IMG/VR virus record: IMGVR_UViG_3300009082_000016
Coordinates: 108,724 to 172,723 of that record
Source: a virus
Length of the DNA stretch: 64,000 nt
Reading direction: 5' to 3' (one strand)
Made by a program: the position numbers and the translations under genes. Positions within the stretch are counted from its first letter, which is position 1; each line of letters starts with the position of its first letter. Of the stretch, positions 5,983 to 47,542 are shown one piece after another. Under the pieces are notes generated by a model. That model saw only the letters and a program-made list of their open reading frames with translations, ran no database searches and was not told the DNA's origin.

Positions 5983-6345
5983 TCACCAGGGCTTCCCGGA
6001 GCGGCACACCTTCCTTCTATCCCACGGGCGCATGCCGGGCAAGAACTCGGCCCAGGCCACCCGCGGCGGCGCCACGTGCTTCATGTCGAATGGCGCCTTG
6101 CCGATGCGCCGGTCGACCTGCCGCAGGATGCGGGCGATCGTCTCGCGGCTGACGCCCACCATCCGCGCCACCCGACTCGCCGTCAAGCCGAACATGTAGA
6201 CGGTGCGGAACACGAACTGCTCCCGCGGCGGCATCGAACAGAGCGCGGCGCAGAGCCCCACCTGGAACTCGAGGGGCATGTTCTGGACCCACGGGGCGAG
6301 GGAACCACGCCGGCCGCGCTGCTTGGCGCCAAACATGTTCGTCAT
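5983..6345 (-). CDS. sigma-70 region-4-like HTH protein
   Basis: ALCSMPPREQFVF...GLTASRVARMVGVSRETIARIL. Confidence 0.7.
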   Translation of the reverse strand: MTNMFGAKQRGRRGSLAPWVQNMPLEFQVGLCAALCSMPPREQFVFRTVYMFGLTASRVARMVGVSRETIARILRQVDRRIGKAPFDMKHVAPPRVAWAEFLPGMRPWDRRKVCRSGKPW

Positions 6346-6707
6346 CCTCCACCTGCCAGCTTCTTCCCCTCTTCGCAGTCGCAGAGGATGTCGTTGGAGA
6401 TGTGCCCCGTGTCGAGGCACTTCTCGCACTCCATGATCAGGAACTCCTTCCGGCCCCTCACGTCGGCGAGGTAGTCGGTGACCGCGTCCAGGAAGTTGGT
6501 CAGCCCCTCCATGCAGTCGTCATCGTCCTTGCTGAACTGGATCAGCTCCGGCCCCGGCGTCCCGTACTCCACGCCCCGGGCCATCTGGGCGCGGCGGAAC
6601 CGGCCCGATAGCTCCAGCAGGCAGAGCCGCTGCTTCTTCCAGAGCTCAGGGTCGAGCTTCTTGAGAATGTCCTCGATGGTCGCGAATCCAAGATCTCCAC
6701 AAGCCAT
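6342..6707 (-). CDS. hypothetical protein with C-terminal Zn knuckle
   Basis: AAAGGAG RBS; CEKCLDTG...CDC. Confidence 0.65.
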   Translation of the reverse strand: MACGDLGFATIEDILKKLDPELWKKQRLCLLELSGRFRRAQMARGVEYGTPGPELIQFSKDDDDCMEGLTNFLDAVTDYLADVRGRKEFLIMECEKCLDTGHISNDILCDCEEGKKLAGGG

Positions 6708-6725
6708 GTGCTTCTCCTTTCCTAT

Positions 6726-6871
6726 GGTGGCTTCCAGCAGGGACCGGCCGAAGCCGATCCCTGCGACCTGGTGGCGTCAGTCAGAGGCTAGTCCGATTCC
6801 TGTCGCAGCTAGCCGTAACGATCCAGGGCATGCCGGAGTCCCACGTCAGCGGGCCCCTGCTGGAAACCACC
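6726..6871 (-). ncRNA. putative guide-like structured RNA, unit C (third transcribed)
   Basis: 17-bp terminal stem 6726-6742/6855-6871 (one G.U on minus strand); conserved 5' hairpin; C(UUCG)G 3' hairpin; 73-nt pentamer-periodic core. Confidence 0.8.
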
Positions 6872-7018
6872 TTCTGGATCACAGGAGGGACCGGCCGAAG
6901 CCGATCCCGCATCCGAGACGCTAACCTTGCTAGCACGGCCACGCCTAAACGTGACTAGTGGAGCCCGTACCAGCCTTGCCGGAGTCCCACGTCAGCGGGC
7001 CCCTCCTGTGATCCAGAA
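6872..7018 (-). ncRNA. putative guide-like structured RNA, unit B
   Basis: Perfect 18-bp terminal stem 6872-6889/7001-7018; same conserved hairpins; 72-nt periodic core. Confidence 0.8.
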
Positions 7019-7169
7019 CGTCCCCTCCCCGAGGGACCGGCCGAGGTCTAAACCACGGTCGGTCCCGCGGGCTTGCCGGAACTAGGCGGGCCACACCTGC
7101 CCTTGCCTTGTTGAGGCCTTCCCCGAGATGCCGGAGTCCCGCATCAGCGGGCCCCTCGGGGAGGGGACG
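7019..7169 (-). ncRNA. putative guide-like structured RNA, unit A (first transcribed)
   Basis: Perfect 17-bp terminal stem 7019-7035/7153-7169; conserved 5' hairpin; longer 3' hairpin; 66-nt periodic core; starts 5 nt after the upstream stop codon. Confidence 0.8.
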
Positions 7170-7174
7170 TCGAT

Positions 7175-7807
7175 CTACGCGGCCTCTTCCAGGATCCTGT
7201 TGAGCCGGTTCCGGATCCGCGTGAGCGCGGTGCGAAGCACGGGCAGCACCGTTCCCAGGAGCTCGGCCGCCCTGCGGTTGTTCTCGTACTTGTTGAGCAG
7301 GCCCTCGATGTCGTCGATGATCTCCCGGAGAAGGAGGGTGCCGGTGTTCCGCCTGCGGAGCCGTTCCACCGTGTGCTGGTAGGACTTCTTGCTCGTGGCC
7401 GAGGTCCGAACCGACACATTGCCGGTGACGACAATCTGGACCTTCTTGATCTTCACGACCCAGGCATAGCCCCGGGCCATGAGCCGCGCTTCCTGCTTCC
7501 ACTGCTTCTCGGCCGCCTCGCTCCGGTTGGCCGTGAAGCCGACGGAGAGGTTCTCCTTCACCCACGCGGGGACGGGCTCACCATCGAATCGGCCGTCGCG
7601 CCAGGCCGCCACGATGTGGTCGGTCTCGACGGATCCGTTCGCCTGGGTGTTCAACCAGTCGATCGCCCTTCCGTAGAGCATAGCCTGCGCGTCGGTGTAC
7701 ACCGGCGTCCGTGACTGGTAACCGACGAGCGTCGCCCCTTCCGGCAGCTGGCCCGGCTGAACGACGTCCTCCTCGTAGCTGATGATCTCCTTCTTCTCCT
7801 GGGCCAT
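7175..7807 (-). CDS. partner protein of the RAMP-like gene
   Basis: TGATG-coupled to the RAMP-like gene; helical motif VETDHIVAAWRD...SEAAEKQWKQEARLMAR. Confidence 0.7.
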   Translation of the reverse strand: MAQEKKEIISYEEDVVQPGQLPEGATLVGYQSRTPVYTDAQAMLYGRAIDWLNTQANGSVETDHIVAAWRDGRFDGEPVPAWVKENLSVGFTANRSEAAEKQWKQEARLMARGYAWVVKIKKVQIVVTGNVSVRTSATSKKSYQHTVERLRRRNTGTLLLREIIDDIEGLLNKYENNRRAAELLGTVLPVLRTALTRIRNRLNRILEEAA

Positions 7808-8475
7808 CAGCCTTCCTTCACCAGGCGCTTCGCTCCGGCGATCGTGAAAACGCCGTTGGCCTCGTGGCATCCCCGTCCCGGGCGCCCCTGACCCAACCCG
7901 ATGAACTGGCCGGCATGCTGCACGATGCTCGCCAGGAGATCGAGGCTGACGACGTCCGGCTTGTGGATGACCGTCACCCTCGTGTACCACGGCGGATTGA
8001 AGTGTGGACGGTACACGGTGGCGGGGAAGTGGGTGCGCGTCTCCTCCTTCTTGTCCTTGTTCCCACGGAACACGATGTCCTTGCTGCACATCTCGATGTC
8101 CTCACAGATGATCGGGTACACCCCACTCGGCACGCGAAACAGCCGGATGTTCTCGGCCGGAAGGTGGAGGATCTCCGTCGCCGCCTGGACGAAGCATCCA
8201 TGGAACGCACCCGAAGGGATCCCGAACGGGTGCTTCTTGTCCCCCGTCAGATGCAGGCAGCCCTTCGCCTCATCCTTCGGGTCCAGCTTGGCCGGCTTGG
8301 GAGGGTAGGGCTCTCCCTTGCCGCGCTCGCTCATCGCACGCATGAAATCGGCCAGGGCTGCCCGCGGCTTCCCCGGAATGAAAGGGGCCTCTCCCACGAG
8401 ATCGAAGGCGGTATACCAGAGCTCGAGGGGCTTCAACTTGATCTCCACCTCTTCGGCCTGCATCTTCTTCGTCAT
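7807..8475 (-). CDS. stand-alone Cas7/RAMP-like protein
   Basis: N-terminal FDLVGEAPFI strand; FGIPSGAFHGCF (RAMP IPxSxxKG-like); YRPHF-x3-W; C-terminal Gly-rich loop GQFIGLGQGRPG...NGVFTI. Confidence 0.8.
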   Translation of the reverse strand: MTKKMQAEEVEIKLKPLELWYTAFDLVGEAPFIPGKPRAALADFMRAMSERGKGEPYPPKPAKLDPKDEAKGCLHLTGDKKHPFGIPSGAFHGCFVQAATEILHLPAENIRLFRVPSGVYPIICEDIEMCSKDIVFRGNKDKKEETRTHFPATVYRPHFNPPWYTRVTVIHKPDVVSLDLLASIVQHAGQFIGLGQGRPGRGCHEANGVFTIAGAKRLVKEG

Positions 8476-8483
8476 GTCCTCTC

Positions 8484-8768
8484 CTAGTCTTCGAGGTTGG
8501 CGATCCAGACGAGGCCATCCTCGAAGTGCTGCTCCCTCGCGATGCGGCAGATCTCCTGCCACACATCCTCGGGAATGCTGTCACGGTCCGACCCCTCTTC
8601 GTGGTCGAACGTAATGAACACGTCGCTGTACTCGCCTGGGACTTCGCCCTTCCGGTGCCACGTCGCGATCGGCTTGCCGGAGTTGAGCCAGTCCATGAAG
8701 TCCTTGCGCTGGTACCACTCGGAGGCGTCGATGCGGAGCACCCGCCCGACATACTTGAACACGGCCAT
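8484..8768 (-). CDS. hypothetical protein
   Basis: TGATG coupling; ATWH-x5-PGEYSDVF motif. Confidence 0.65.
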   Translation of the reverse strand: MAVFKYVGRVLRIDASEWYQRKDFMDWLNSGKPIATWHRKGEVPGEYSDVFITFDHEEGSDRDSIPEDVWQEICRIAREQHFEDGLVWIANLED

Positions 8769-8986
8769 CAGCGATCCTTCCCGTAGTACTCGAGGCACTC
8801 CTTGCACCGCAGGAACCCGGCATCGTCATCCTCCGGGTCGCCCTCGAGCACCGCGCCTCCCTGATCGATCTGGAAGGCACCGCAGACCGTGTCCTGGTCG
8901 TTGGACCCCTCGAACTCGCAGTCCTTGCCGCCGGCGCCGCAGTGCTTCCCCTCGAACCGGATGGTCCGCTTGGTCTCAATCTCCAT
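8768..8986 (-). CDS. small Cys-rich protein
   Basis: HC..C..C..RCKEC pattern; GAGGAGG RBS. Confidence 0.6.
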   Translation of the reverse strand: MEIETKRTIRFEGKHCGAGGKDCEFEGSNDQDTVCGAFQIDQGGAVLEGDPEDDDAGFLRCKECLEYYGKDR

Positions 8987-9354
8987 TAGCCCTCCTCATG
9001 CCACACCACCTTGATGCGGTATGTGGTCCCCTCAGGGGTCTCTGCCTCCAGGAAGGAAGGCCACCCATCGAGGGGCACGGACTCGAAAATGAGCCGGCCG
9101 TCCAAGCTGATCTCGAAGGAGCCCCAGTAGTTGTGCTGACCCGAGCAGAGTTTGACGGACACGAAGGCCCCATCGTCCAACCTGACCGCCGGAGCCTCCC
9201 GGGTATCATCGTAGTACGCCCGGGTGCTCCCGTCCCTGGGGGCCGGACCCTTCCGCACCCCCTTCAGGTTCTCCGGGAACACGATGTCGATCAGCTTCTT
9301 CCAGGAACTCGGCAGGACAATCTCACCCCGAACGGGCTGGGTCTTCTTGCCCAT
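8986..9354 (-). CDS. hypothetical protein
   Basis: Coupled ORF with GGAGG RBS. Confidence 0.65.
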   Translation of the reverse strand: MGKKTQPVRGEIVLPSSWKKLIDIVFPENLKGVRKGPAPRDGSTRAYYDDTREAPAVRLDDGAFVSVKLCSGQHNYWGSFEISLDGRLIFESVPLDGWPSFLEAETPEGTTYRIKVVWHEEG

Positions 9355-10013
9355 CAGCCCTCCTCCGCGTCGTCGTGGATGAAACCGGAGCCGGCCGCCA
9401 TCCCCAGCGTCACGTGGGCGCCGGAGTCGACCATCGCCCGCATCGCCTGGCCGAGCTCGAAGCTGCGGCGCACGTTGGCCTTCGCCTTCTCCCGGTCAGG
9501 GCCGGGGGAGTGGAACGCGAGCCGGATGTCGACCTCGCCGCTCGTACAGCGAGCACAACAGGCGGGCATCTTCAGCGTCGGCTCCGGGATGACGTCCAGC
9601 AGGAACCAGACGTCGTCCAGGCCCATCCCGTTGAACCCCGCCATGATCAGGGACGAGCCGATGCACTTGAGCTGCGACTCGCGGTCAGCCGGGGGGATCG
9701 GCGCGGGCTCGGTCCTGTCGACCTTCTTGCCCATCATCTCCTCGAAGTAGCTGTCGGCCATCGCGGCGCCCATCGCCACGTTGTCCACCAGCTTCTGCTT
9801 CCCCTCGGCGATCGCCGCGGCGGCCTCGCTCTCCAGCTCCACCTCGCGCTCCGCACCGGCACCGTAGAGCACCACGGTGATCCCGGCGTCCGCCAGGACG
9901 CCCTCCCACCGGAGTCCGTCCCTGATGCCTTTCCGCTGGAAGTCGAAGCCACACAGGGCGGCGTGCTCCAGGATCGACATCGCCCCCTGCGTCGGGTCCT
10001 TCTTCTCCACCAT
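9354..10013 (-). CDS. hypothetical protein
   Basis: Coupled ORF with GAGGAGG RBS. Confidence 0.65.
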   Translation of the reverse strand: MVEKKDPTQGAMSILEHAALCGFDFQRKGIRDGLRWEGVLADAGITVVLYGAGAEREVELESEAAAAIAEGKQKLVDNVAMGAAMADSYFEEMMGKKVDRTEPAPIPPADRESQLKCIGSSLIMAGFNGMGLDDVWFLLDVIPEPTLKMPACCARCTSGEVDIRLAFHSPGPDREKAKANVRRSFELGQAMRAMVDSGAHVTLGMAAGSGFIHDDAEEG

Positions 10014-21855: not shown

Positions 21856-22101
21856 CTGTTGTCCTATCGAAGGGTCTCTGTTGTCCTAGTCGGTGGGACC
21901 CTATTGTCCTAGTGGGGGTCCCTGTTGTCCTAGTGCCACGTTTTCGTGATCTTGGTAGGACAATAGGACCCCTCTGCGCCGAAATACAGAGGACTTACGC
22001 TTGGTTTACCCCACACAGACGATAGGACAATAGGGTCCCAGGGACTCTGTTGTCCTAGTGAGGGTCTCTATTGTCCTAGTCGGTGGGACCCTGTTGTCCT
22101 A
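21856..22101. repeat. iteron-like array, putative replication origin
   Basis: Nine copies of CTRTTGTCCTA: direct at 21856, 21878, 21901, 21922, 22047, 22068, 22091 (21-23 bp spacing); inverted at 21956 and 22023; essentially non-coding. Confidence 0.8.
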
Positions 22102-22482
22102 CCGGTGGAACGTCTCGAGGGTGGCCCGGACGTGCGCCCGGGTCAGTTTTGCCAGCTCGACGAACTGGAGCCGGCAGAAGCCGCACAGGTGGCTGTACTC
22201 GAGGTGCTCGTCCTCGCCGGCGGCTTTGAGGCTGATGCGGAAGCCGCCGCGCACCCGCCGGGCAGCGGTCGGCTCGTGGCAGCGGTCGCAGCGTGGGGTG
22301 TTCGAACGCACCCGGAAGAGGACGACCATCGGCTTCCCGTCGGGGCCGGCGATGACGTCCCTGGCCAGCAGTCCCTTCTTCACCATCTGCTGCGTCTGGC
22401 TGAGGATGACGGACGCCCCATCGAACATGCGACGGAAGCCGTCGATCTCGGGGGACGGTTCCCCTGGCTTTTTTCCTGCCAT
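22099..22482 (-). CDS. Zn-finger hypothetical protein
   Basis: AAAGGAG RBS; CDRC...LCGFC. Confidence 0.6.
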   Translation of the reverse strand: MAGKKPGEPSPEIDGFRRMFDGASVILSQTQQMVKKGLLARDVIAGPDGKPMVVLFRVRSNTPRCDRCHEPTAARRVRGGFRISLKAAGEDEHLEYSHLCGFCRLQFVELAKLTRAHVRATLETFHR

Positions 22483-46072: not shown

Positions 46073-47542
46073 TCAGTATCCGGGGGTCGGCTGAGTGGCC
46101 CCGCCCCACGCCGCACGGGAAACCCCCATGCGGGAACGGAACCGGTTGACGGCCCCGGCCTGGGCGGCGTTCATGAGCTCGCCGCCGGTGATGCTGGCAT
46201 CGCCCATCGTGTTGCGCCGCGGCTTGACCCCGGGTGGCAGGTTCCGGGCCTGCTCCTGCTCGCGCCGCTGGAAGTAGCGGTGCGCCAGGAGTCCACCCAG
46301 GAGCAGGCCGCCACCGACCATGACGACCTTGCCCGGGCTGACTTTCATCGCGGCGAGACCGCCGCGGATGAGACCGCGCGGAACGTGCTTCGGGATGGTG
46401 ACGGCCGCCTTCTCGAACGAGGCCTTCTTGGACTTCCCGATCAGGAGGTCCGACAGCCCCTTCTCGGCGTCGTGCAGGAGGTCGCCGGCGGCCGTTCCCT
46501 CGAGGTCCTTCGCGATCCGATCGACCGCGGCGCCCGTCGGGGAGCGCGGGAGGGACGCGTGGACTTCCTGGGCGACGCTGATCGCCTGTCCGAGATCGGG
46601 CGTCGCGGCCGTCTTGTGCATCGCCAGCTTGAGGGCGAGCGCCCCGTCCGAACGGGAACGCCGGCGGCCCGCGGCAAGCGCCGCGGTGACCTGCATCCCC
46701 GGCTGACCGCCCTGCTGCTGAGCCGCCATCTGCTGCATCACGGCCAGCTCCTGCGGACTCGGACCACCTTGCTGACCGCCCTGCTGCTGAGCCGCCATCT
46801 GCTGCATCATGGCCAGCTCCTGCGGACTCGGACCACCTTGCTGACCGCCCTGCTGACCGCCCTGCTGACCGCCCTGCTGACCGCCCTGCTGCTCCGGCCC
46901 GCCCGGCTGCTGGCCCTGCATCTGCATCTGCTGCATCTGCTGCATCTGCTGCATCTGCATCGCCTGAGCCTGCATCGCCTGCTGCGTCGGGTCCATCTCG
47001 ATCGCCTGGAGCAGCTGCTGCTTGTACTGCTGCCAGGCCATCTCCTTCTGCTGCGCGGAGCGGGTCGCCGCGGCGGCCTCCATCTTCGCGCCGATCGCTT
47101 CCTGGCCGGCCTGCATGGCCTGCATGGTCGCCTGGCTGACCTGGGCGCCAAGTTGCTGCTGCATCTGCTGGGCCTGCTGCGTGACCTGCTGGGTCTGCGA
47201 AGCCGCCTGCCCAAGCTGCTGGACCTGCTGCTGCAGCTGCTGGATGACCTTCTGGGCTTCCTGGCCCGCCTGGGACGCCGACATCACCTCCCGCTGCAGG
47301 CCCTGGATTTCCGCCTGTTGCTGGGAGACGACCTGCCCCATGTCCCGCATGGCCGTGTCGCGCGGGTCGTCGACGATCTCGTCGGTGACCAGACGCTCGC
47401 GCACCGCCCTGCTGATTGCGTCGTCCGGGCGGACGAGCTGCGCCGTCTTCGCGGCGGGGAGCAGGAACTTCTTGTACCAGCCCGCCTTCTTGACCAGCGA
47501 AGGCTGCGGACCGAGTTTCCTCAGAAGCTCGTCGTGAGTCAT
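46073..47542 (-). CDS. Gln-rich low-complexity virion-region protein
   Basis: Q/M/G-rich tract with QQGG repeats. Confidence 0.7.
   Translation of the reverse strand: MTHDELLRKLGPQPSLVKKAGWYKKFLLPAAKTAQLVRPDDAISRAVRERLVTDEIVDDPRDTAMRDMGQVVSQQQAEIQGLQREVMSASQAGQEAQKVIQQLQQQVQQLGQAASQTQQVTQQAQQMQQQLGAQVSQATMQAMQAGQEAIGAKMEAAAATRSAQQKEMAWQQYKQQLLQAIEMDPTQQAMQAQAMQMQQMQQMQQMQMQGQQPGGPEQQGGQQGGQQGGQQGGQQGGPSPQELAMMQQMAAQQQGGQQGGPSPQELAVMQQMAAQQQGGQPGMQVTAALAAGRRRSRSDGALALKLAMHKTAATPDLGQAISVAQEVHASLPRSPTGAAVDRIAKDLEGTAAGDLLHDAEKGLSDLLIGKSKKASFEKAAVTIPKHVPRGLIRGGLAAMKVSPGKVVMVGGGLLLGGLLAHRYFQRREQEQARNLPPGVKPRRNTMGDASITGGELMNAAQAGAVNRFRSRMGVSRAAWGGATQPTPGY
46703..46890. repeat. coding tandem repeats (69-bp duplication plus 12-bp QQGG units)
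   Basis: GPSPQELAxMQQMAAQQQGGQ twice; CTGACCGCCCTG units. Confidence 0.8.

What the first reader, a model, noticed from the sequence alone, without database searches (positions are those of the whole stretch)
6726..8475. Candidate phage RNA-guided system: lone Cas7/RAMP-like gene, partner gene and array of three structured RNAs
Seen: a coupled two-gene unit (8475-7807, 7807-7175) followed 5 nt later by three abutting 146-151-nt units with constant ends and variable cores. No cas1/2/3/5/6 and no CRISPR repeat-spacer array occur in the window. Known: RAMP/Cas7 proteins polymerise along guide RNA with a fixed nucleotide step. Inference: the RAMP coats each variable core to form three differently programmed RNPs, aimed at competing phages/MGEs or host genes, perhaps by silencing since no nuclease is evident. 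From memory and unverified, it resembles the recently reported viral VIPR-type systems with GGY-NN guide repeats. This locus would be a divergent variant with degenerate triplets and individually stem-closed units.
Basis: partly seen in the sequence, partly recalled or inferred. Interest (0 to 1): 0.95.

Follow-up and report, generated by a model that had tools for sequence, protein, structure and literature searches.

The report
Divergent phage VIPR guide-RNA system
A 173-kb uncultured phage carries a very divergent copy of the VIPR system, a CRISPR-like RNA-guided DNA silencer first described in 2026. It has a small Cas7-like protein, an orphan partner gene and three guide RNAs, and each guide is unusually packaged as its own stem-closed module.

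Summary
On the minus strand lie a 222-aa gene (8475-7807) and a 210-aa gene overlapping it by one base (7807-7175). Four bases after the stop codon begin three abutting RNA units (7170-7018, 7017-6873, 6871-6726).

The 222-aa protein has a Cas7/Csm3 RAMP fold (model pLDDT 91.8; Z up to 12.8). A profile of its 53 distant relatives hits the solved SUSP1 Vipr protein (E 4e-16).

Each RNA unit has four parts:
- a unit-specific 14-15-bp closing stem, with 11 of 14 pairs compensatory between units;
- a conserved 5' hairpin;
- a 69-76-nt unstructured core;
- a conserved 3' hairpin.

The cores carry a degenerate Y-N-N-G-G pentamer rhythm: G at position 4 in 32 of 43 pentamers, G at position 5 in 22, a pyrimidine at position 1 in 31 (p<2e-4). 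They are the top-scoring stretches for this rhythm in the whole phage genome.

VIPR is already in print (bioRxiv 2026) and this scan has met it in many other genomes. The closing stems, the relaxed repeat, the orphan partner gene and the long-branch Vipr are unusual.

No target was found, and no expression or binding was tested. Verdict: a new variant of a known kind, of moderate interest.

The parts
7807..8475 (-). vipr: 222-aa minimal RAMP (Cas7-like) protein. The G-loop is GLGQGRPGRG (residues 193-202). The thumb is a beta-hairpin at about 127-159 with a 6-7-residue insertion. YRP R156 corresponds to SUSP1 R138.
   Evidence: AF2 model built on a 54-sequence alignment: pLDDT 91.8. Foldseek and VIA-align top hits are Csm3/Cmr4/Cas7, Z 12.8-9. 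Family profile against PDB 36pp_D SUSP1 Vipr: E 4.4e-16. hhalign against four Viprs that sit beside classical GGC arrays: 95.9%, E 5e-9. phrog_4652: E 4e-6.
7175..7807 (-). ORF B: 210-aa orphan partner gene, translationally coupled (TGATG overlap), arginine-rich helical C-terminus. It sits where the accessory gene (vap) sits in SUSP1.
   Evidence: Third-position GC 0.90. No Pfam, PHROG or NCBIfam hit. No homologue among 5.8 billion proteins by word-index search. No relation to SUSP1 vap1 (BLASTP E 11). Not significantly related to the phrog_15946 vap of relatives (hhalign 12% and 4%).
7018..7170 (-). vrRNA unit 1. 15-bp closing stem ACGUCCCCUCCCCGA/UCGGGGAGGGGACGU, 5' hairpin, 14-pentamer core (includes CAAGG CAAGG GCAGG UGUGG), extended 3' hairpin.
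6873..7017 (-). vrRNA unit 2. 14-bp closing stem UCUGGAUCACAGGA/UCCUGUGAUCCAGA, 5' hairpin, 15-pentamer core, 3' hairpin GGGAUCGGC-UUCG-GCCGGUCCC.
   Evidence: z -6.5
6726..6871 (-). vrRNA unit 3. 14-bp closing stem GGUGGUUUCCAGCA/UGCUGGAAGCCACC, 5' hairpin, 15-pentamer core (the first nine pentamers all have G at position 4), 3' hairpin.
   Evidence: z -5.8
8484..8765 (-). Upstream 93-aa gene, 8 nt from the vipr start, same strand. Probably co-transcribed; whether it belongs to the system is unknown.
   Evidence: third-position GC 0.89; no family hit
6342..6707 (-). Downstream 121-aa gene. Its ribosome-binding site (GGAAAGGAG) follows unit 3 directly, and no terminator lies between them, so the array appears embedded in an operon.
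   Evidence: (no terminator-like site in 6000-9600)

Best explanation
The locus is a divergent VIPR (Viral Interference Programmable Repeat) system.

Shown here:
- The 222-aa protein is a Vipr-family minimal RAMP.
- The three downstream units are non-coding.
- Each unit is framed by a unit-specific closing stem plus conserved 5' and 3' hairpins.
- Each unit holds about 14-15 pentamers with a degenerate Y-N-N-G-G rhythm, in a core that is no more structured than shuffled sequence.

Inferred by analogy with the characterised SUSP1 system:
- The minus-strand operon transcript folds into three independent modules.
- Each module is released or trimmed at its closing stem. The likeliest agent is a host double-strand-specific RNase such as RNase III, because the phage encodes none.
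- One Vipr protomer binds each pentamer. It clamps the G(G)Y positions and presents the two variable bases.
- The filament pairs those bases with double-stranded DNA, skipping every third target base. It silences transcription of three different targets in a competing mobile element or in the host.
- No nuclease is evident. ORF B would act as an accessory factor of unknown activity.
For: Protein.
- RAMP fold.
- A profile of 54 relatives hits the solved SUSP1 Vipr at E 4.4e-16 over the full length.
- hhalign to Viprs of Mycobacterium phage Saal, Gordonia phages Ecliptus and Pipp, and Cyanophage Cy-LDV1 gives 95.9%, E 5e-9. All four sit beside obvious GGCNN arrays.
- Direct BLASTP to SUSP1 Vipr gives E 7e-5 over the YRP-to-G-loop segment.

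RNA.
- In the register set by the conserved UCCGG, position 4 is G in 32/43 pentamers, position 5 is G in 22/43 and position 1 is a pyrimidine in 31/43.
- There are 16 in-phase GG against 5.2 +/- 1.8 in 5000 dinucleotide shuffles.
- Units 2 and 1 are the two best-scoring 60-nt windows for this rhythm on either strand of the 172.7-kb genome, and unit 3 ties for third.
- G autocorrelation at lag 5 is 0.23-0.30, against 0.30-0.63 in classical arrays.
- Cores are unstructured (z -1.2, -0.05, -0.7) while whole units are strongly structured.
- The closing stem covaries.
- G-U pairs in all helices fit only minus-strand RNA.

Locus.
- The gene order vipr-partner-three guides is the same as in SUSP1.
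- The genome is viral and complete, with terminal repeats.
- The literature defines VIPR as Vipr plus 9-16 YNNGG repeats plus a 3' tail, with frequent internal degeneracy and related consensus motifs.
Against: - Nothing was measured: no transcription, processing, RNA binding or silencing data.
- No target was found by the 1-nt-skip rule. None appeared in the phage's own genome, in IMG/VR with 10-pentamer exact patterns, or in single scans of genome and metagenome contigs.
- The repeat is much weaker than in classical arrays, with the second G present in only half the pentamers.
- Three SUSP1 residues that read the two guanines (H17, D177, W178) are G35, Q196 and G197 here.
- The protein sits on a long branch (1.93).
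- No close relative of the protein or the RNA exists in the collections searched, so conservation of the architecture cannot be tested.
- RNase III processing is pure inference.
Confidence: 0.68

Rival explanations
1. It is a working Vipr-RNA system that uses a changed code. The protein lacks the canonical guanine-reading residues. It may read only G-N-Y, or use a different skip length or a different target such as RNA, so the published 1-nt-skip rule would not decode its guides.
For: - H17, D177 and W178 of SUSP1 are replaced by G35, Q196 and G197.
- Position 5 is G in only 51% of pentamers.
- The thumb carries an insertion.
- No 1-nt-skip target was found.
- Non-canonical VIPR motifs are already reported.
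Against: - Cy-LDV1 Vipr also has G in place of W178 and Q in place of H17, yet sits beside regular GGC arrays. These substitutions alone therefore do not change the code.
- The variable positions are 49% GC in a 66% GC genome. This fits reading of codon positions 1 and 2 with the wobble base skipped.
- The failure to find targets is expected for an uncultured phage with an unknown host.
Confidence: 0.2
2. It is a decaying or inactive VIPR remnant. The pentamer rhythm is eroding and the protein is drifting, so the locus no longer guides anything.
For: The repeats are degenerate and lose register in the last third of unit 3. The Vipr branch is long. Guanine-contact residues are lost.
Against: - Both ORFs are intact with a strong codon signature and are translationally coupled.
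- The handles are identical in all three units.
- Closing stems are 100% paired through 11 compensatory pair changes.
- The G-loop, YRP motif and fold are kept.
Confidence: 0.08
3. The three units are structured RNAs unrelated to the RAMP gene, such as mRNA-processing or stability elements, small RNAs, or repeated hairpins. Their adjacency to vipr would be coincidental.
For: - Strong closing stems and hairpins resemble processing or stability elements.
- No Rfam family matches.
- The array lies inside an operon with no terminator.
Against: - The 5-nt G rhythm is specific to the cores and is the strongest in the genome.
- The cores are variable and unstructured between conserved ends.
- The position matches the SUSP1 guide array.
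- No contiguous antisense match to the rest of the genome exceeds chance; the longest is 13-14 nt.
Confidence: 0.03

Closest known systems
Type II VIPR of Escherichia phage SUSP1 (Vipr, vap1, vrRNAs). Sources: bioRxiv 10.64898/2026.04.26.720920, .720927 and 10.64898/2026.10.15.759431; PDB 36pp.
   Same: - Phage-encoded, with no cas genes and no CRISPR array.
- Gene order is vipr, then a partner gene, then three guide units downstream.
- A small single-RRM RAMP with thumb and G-loop; R138 and R179 are conserved.
- Each guide is a tract of about 12-15 pentamers between a conserved 5' element and a conserved 3' hairpin tail.
   Different: - The two Viprs align over only 48 residues at 27% identity (E 7e-5).
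- SUSP1 H17, D177 and W178 are G35, Q196 and G197 here.
- The partner protein is unrelated (E 11).
- SUSP1 units have an AT-rich leader and a hairpin/pseudoknot tail, and no closing stem.
- Here each unit is enclosed by a 14-15-bp unit-specific stem and has a GC-rich 5' hairpin.
- The repeats are degenerate: G 74%, G 51%, Y 72%.
Classical VIPR loci of the nearest detectable relatives. These are Mycobacterium phage Saal gp51-52, Gordonia phages Ecliptus and Pipp, Cyanophage Cy-LDV1 g34-g33, and IMG/VR and metagenome loci L009 and L008. All combine a phrog_4652 Vipr with a phrog_15946 partner.
   Same: Same Vipr family (hhalign 95.9%). Phage-borne. 5-nt G rhythm.
   Different: - The relatives have long continuous GGCNN arrays punctuated by GGCAGGC. 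The arrays lie between vipr and a partner protein with an FEW(D/N)D motif, or upstream of vipr.
- The window has discrete framed units placed after an orphan partner that lacks that motif.
Class 1 CRISPR backbone proteins Csm3/Cmr4/Cas7.
   Same: Same RAMP fold, with Z 12.8-9 and about 10% identity. Presumed polymerisation along a guide RNA with thumb-induced periodic base flipping.
   Different: - No CRISPR repeat-spacer array and no cas1, cas2, cas6, cas10 or other RAMP in the phage.
- The RNA period is 5 nt, not 6.
- The guide code is non-contiguous.

Membership tests
VIPR system | Protein homologous to characterised Vipr proteins | tested here: met
   Family profile against PDB 36pp_D SUSP1 Vipr: E 4.4e-16. 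hhalign to four Viprs beside classical arrays: 95.9%, E 5e-9. BLASTP to SUSP1 Vipr: E 7e-5. phrog_4652: E 4e-6.
VIPR system | Minimal RAMP architecture: single RRM core, glycine-rich loop and thumb | tested here: met
   AF2 model pLDDT 91.8. Best structural matches are Cmr4/Csm3/Cas7. The G-loop GLGQGRPGRG and the YRP thumb motif align with the family.
VIPR system | SUSP1 residues that contact GGY (H17, R138, D177, W178, R179) | tested here: inconclusive
   R138 and R179 are kept as R156 and R198. H17, D177 and W178 are G35, Q196 and G197. Cy-LDV1 Vipr also lacks H and W yet has regular GGC arrays, so these residues do not define membership.
VIPR system | Guide RNA with 9-16 tandem pentamers of GGY/NN or a related consensus | tested here: met
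   There are 14-15 pentamers per unit. G at position 4 in 32/43, G at position 5 in 22/43, Y at position 1 in 31/43. In-phase GG 16 against 5.2 +/- 1.8, p<2e-4. Top-ranked in the genome. The pattern is degenerate, at the low end of classical arrays.
VIPR system | Invariable structured 3' tail after the repeat tract | tested here: met
   A conserved 3' hairpin GGGAUCGGC-UUCG-GCCGGUCCC is present; unit 1 has an extended version. Units 2 and 3 show no obvious potential for a SUSP1-type pseudoknot, because their loop is only 4 nt.
VIPR system | Minimal locus with an accessory vap gene of a described class (vap1-6) | tested here: inconclusive
   A coupled partner gene is present. It has no detectable similarity to SUSP1 vap1 or to the phrog_15946 partner, and no homologue anywhere. 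The sequences of vap2-6 were not available here.
VIPR system | Viral or mobile-element context without cas genes or a CRISPR array | tested here: met
   IMG/VR virus record of 172,723 bp with direct terminal repeats, 100% complete. No CRISPR-like repeats and no Rfam hit. The only RAMP is vipr.
VIPR system | vrRNA is expressed and co-purifies with Vipr; silencing is programmable | not testable with these tools
   Needs small-RNA sequencing, pull-down and reporter assays.
VIPR system | Natural targets decodable by the 1-nt-skip rule | tested here: inconclusive
   No match above shuffled controls in the phage's own genome. No exact 10-11-pentamer match in IMG/VR (all three units), in GTDB genome contigs (unit 1) or in JGI metagenome contigs (unit 2). 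The host is unknown.
CRISPR-Cas class 1 | Repeat-spacer array plus cas operon (Cas5, Cas6, large subunit, adaptation genes) | tested here: not met
   No repeat-spacer array. No CRISPR direct-repeat family. Only a single RAMP in the genome.
Ribozyme-interspersed VIPR arrays (hammerhead; types I and V) | Self-cleaving ribozyme between guide units | tested here: inconclusive
   A permissive Rfam scan (E up to 10) of 6000-9000 finds no hammerhead, twister, HDV-like or other ribozyme. The conserved CUGAYG lies in a hairpin loop, and no GAAA core is present. A novel ribozyme cannot be excluded.

The most novel reading that the evidence does not exclude
This may be an undescribed VIPR type with three features. 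First, each guide is made as a self-contained module, closed by its own 14-15-bp stem and flanked by two conserved hairpins, and is excised by a host double-strand RNase. The published biogenesis routes are leaders with tails, staggered cuts, and hammerhead ribozymes. Second, a Vipr lacking the canonical guanine-reading residues reads a relaxed G-N-Y/NN code. Third, it works with an unrelated, new accessory protein.
Probability: 0.35. Interest if true: 0.6.

Novelty: new variant of a known kind. Interest (0 to 1): 0.5.

Why it matters
VIPR is a months-old class of RNA-guided DNA binders and is proposed to be ancestral to CRISPR. How its guides are made, and how far the pentamer code can drift, are open questions.

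This locus pairs one of the most divergent Vipr proteins still recognisable by sequence with guides whose second guanine is optional. Each guide is packaged in a covarying stem. That suggests a processing route based on double-strand RNases. It also offers a natural test of which protein contacts fix the GGY code.

The locus extends VIPR to a 173-kb phage that carries its own RNA polymerase. It does not change the concept of the class.

Tried and rejected
- Close relatives. None was found for the Vipr protein, for ORF B or for the RNA handle.
- Locus searches. Single-protein searches with P0002, P0004, P0007 and P0003 returned only two further classical VIPR loci, L008 and L009.
- Structure of Vipr without an alignment. 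The single-sequence AF2 model was useless, with pLDDT 37.
- ORF B as a remote member of the phrog_15946 partner family. hhalign gave 12%, then 4% with a richer profile. It lacks the invariant H..FEW motif, so this idea is rejected as unsupported.
- ORF B structure. The ESM Atlas model is poor (pTM 0.22) and gave no usable look-alike.
- Ribozymes and Rfam families. None was found.
- Phage-encoded RNase III. None.
- Self-targeting or contiguous antisense targets in the phage. None above chance.
- Target searches by the 1-nt-skip rule in public collections. No exact hit. Only exact patterns could be scanned, so imperfect targets would be missed.
- Loss of W178 as the cause of the relaxed second G. 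Not accepted, because Cy-LDV1 also lacks it yet has regular GGC repeats.
- Tree of the family. The quick tree is star-like, with the window on a long branch. Its grouping with P0029, P0034, P0048 and P0054 may be long-branch attraction. One row (L008) was translated out of frame and should be ignored.
Full report
**What is there.** The window is bases 108,724-172,723 of a complete IMG/VR virus record of 172,723 bp. The record has direct terminal repeats and 65.8% GC. All features lie on the minus strand.
- A 93-aa gene ends 8 nt before a 222-aa gene (8475-7807).
- The TGA of the 222-aa gene overlaps the ATG of a 210-aa gene (7807-7175) by one base.
- Four bases after the stop codon of the 210-aa gene the RNA array begins.
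- The ribosome-binding site of a 121-aa gene follows the array directly.
- The four genes have third-codon-position GC of 0.85-0.90. The array is flat across the three codon positions, so it is non-coding.
- No sigma-70-like promoter or intrinsic terminator separates these features on the minus strand. The array therefore looks embedded in an operon.

**The protein.**
- Pfam and NCBIfam give nothing. PHROGs gives phrog_4652 at E 4e-6.
- An exhaustive HMMER search of 1.84 billion representatives found 53 relatives of about 200 aa at 21-30% identity. The best has E 3.5e-10.
- A profile of these relatives hits PDB 36pp chain D, "SUSP1 Vipr protein", at E 4.4e-16 over its full length.
- With that alignment AlphaFold2 gives a confident model, pLDDT 91.8. 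Its best structural matches are all CRISPR backbone RAMPs: Cmr4, Csm3, and type VII and type IV Cas7, at Z 12.8-9.
- tblastn with family members found homologues in Mycobacterium phages (Saal and about 25 others), Gordonia phages (Ecliptus, Pipp, UmaThurman, ODay) and Cyanophage Cy-LDV1.
- In each locus inspected, the gene lies beside intergenic DNA packed with GGCNN pentamers.
- hhalign of the window protein against four of these Viprs gives 95.9% probability, E 5e-9, over 192 columns.
- Direct BLASTP to SUSP1 Vipr gives E 7e-5 over the YRP-to-G-loop segment.
- The protein is therefore a Vipr. It sits on one of the longest branches of the family tree.
- R138 and R179 of SUSP1 are conserved. 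H17, D177 and W178, which read the two guanines in the cryo-EM structure, are G35, Q196 and G197. The thumb carries a 6-7-residue insertion.

**The RNA units.**
- Exact boundaries by the closing stems are 7170-7018, 7017-6873 and 6871-6726.
- Each unit begins and ends with a 14-15-nt inverted repeat that differs in every unit. All 14 aligned pairs form in all three units. Eleven of them change on both sides between units.
- Inside the stem lie a conserved 5' hairpin (GGGGCCCGC-UGAY-GYGGG-A-CUCC), then GGCA, then a 69-76-nt variable core.
- The 3' hairpin follows (GGGAUCGGC-UUCG-GCCGGUCCC). Unit 1 has an extended version.
- G-U pairs occur in every helix. They would be A-C mismatches on the other strand, so the RNA is minus-sense.
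- Whole units fold far better than shuffles (z -6.5 and -5.8). The cores do not (z -1.2, -0.05, -0.7). A rigid frame around an unstructured middle is what a guide needs.

**The pentamer code.**
- The cores were read in 5-nt steps from the conserved UCCGG.
- Position 4 is G in 32 of 43 pentamers. Position 5 is G in 22. Position 1 is a pyrimidine in 31. G is depleted at positions 1 and 2.
- In-phase GG occurs 16 times, against 5.2 +/- 1.8 in 5000 dinucleotide-preserving shuffles. None of the shuffles reached 16.
- A scan of both strands of the whole phage for this rhythm ranks units 2 and 1 first and second. Unit 3 ties for third.
- G autocorrelation peaks at lags 5 and 10 and is negative at lags 2-3, as in classical arrays. 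It is weaker: 0.23-0.30 against 0.30-0.63.
- The count of 14-15 pentamers per unit lies in the published range of 9-16.
- The published work notes frequent internal degeneracy and related motifs such as NNNGG, YNNNG and NNNNG. It also reports non-canonical trinucleotides.

**Comparison with the reference system.**
- SUSP1 (NC_028808) has the same layout: vipr, vap1, then three guides downstream.
- Its units consist of an AT-rich leader, regular NNGGT repeats and a hairpin/pseudoknot tail. They have no closing stem.
- The window's partner protein is unrelated to vap1. It is also not significantly related to the phrog_15946 partner of the nearer relatives, and it has no homologue anywhere searched.
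- The main texts and figure legends of the preprints describe tandem, staggered, hammerhead-interspersed and single-guide architectures. Stem-closed modules are not mentioned. The supplementary locus tables could not be read.

**Mechanism.**
- Shown: a Vipr-family RAMP gene next to three framed, pentamer-coded, non-coding units.
- Inferred from SUSP1: one protomer binds per pentamer. The G(G)Y bases are flipped out and held. The two variable bases pair with DNA while every third target base is skipped. The result is transcriptional silencing of a competitor or host gene.
- The variable positions are 49% GC in a 66% GC genome, with N2 at 42% and N3 at 56%. The phage's own genes have GC1 0.62 and GC2 0.40. 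This is compatible with guides that read codon positions 1 and 2 in antisense orientation and skip the wobble base.
- Inferred with less support: the closing stems are cut by a host RNase III-type enzyme. The phage has no RNase III and no recognisable ribozyme.

**Targets.**
- None was found.
- The phage's own genome has no match above shuffled-guide controls at skip 0-2, and no contiguous match beyond chance.
- Exact 10-11-pentamer patterns have no hit in IMG/VR, GTDB genome contigs or JGI metagenome contigs.
- The host is unknown, and the phage has few recognisable genes.

**Verdict.** The class is already published, and this scan has met it in several hundred other genomes. The finding is not categorically new. 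It is a strongly divergent variant with an apparently undescribed guide packaging, a relaxed repeat and an orphan partner gene. Interest is moderate.

Noticed in passing
window 6755-7120 (vrRNA cores, minus strand): CTAG is about tenfold under-represented in the phage (0.32 per kb). Yet it occurs five times in the 220 nt of the three cores, four of them as in-register C-TA-G-Y pentamers. The guide dinucleotide TA fills 5 of 43 pentamers.
   Followed up: partly
window 6726-7170: The conserved 5' segment GGGACUCCGGC is complementary to the conserved 3' arm GCCGGUCCC (9 bp with a 2-nt bulge; seen by eye in the sequence). This alternative long-range helix would compete with both terminal hairpins and could act as a conformational switch on protein loading.
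   Followed up: no
window 21856-21935 and 22041-22108: Two clusters of 21-23-nt direct repeats (consensus CTGTTGTCCTAGTCGGGGGTCC, about 3.6 and 3.1 copies). They look like iterons or operator sites.
   Followed up: no
L006 1590-1850, L005 2580-2810, L001 3604-3827 and 4410-4583, L008 1450-2010, L009 1970-2400 and 2900-3100: In classical VIPR arrays of relatives, a 4-nt-spaced GGCAGGC recurs every 60-100 nt and probably marks guide boundaries. The window's cores all begin with CCGGCA. The partner gene in these loci is phrog_15946, with an invariant H..FEW motif.
   Followed up: partly
window 46702-46958: Nested tandem repeats of 69, 18, 12 and 9 nt inside a long ORF region. This is probably a repetitive protein segment.
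   Followed up: no
window 8484-8765 and 6342-6707: The 93-aa and 121-aa genes flanking the VIPR locus on the same strand have no family assignment. They are packed against it without terminators and could be further accessory genes.
   Followed up: partly
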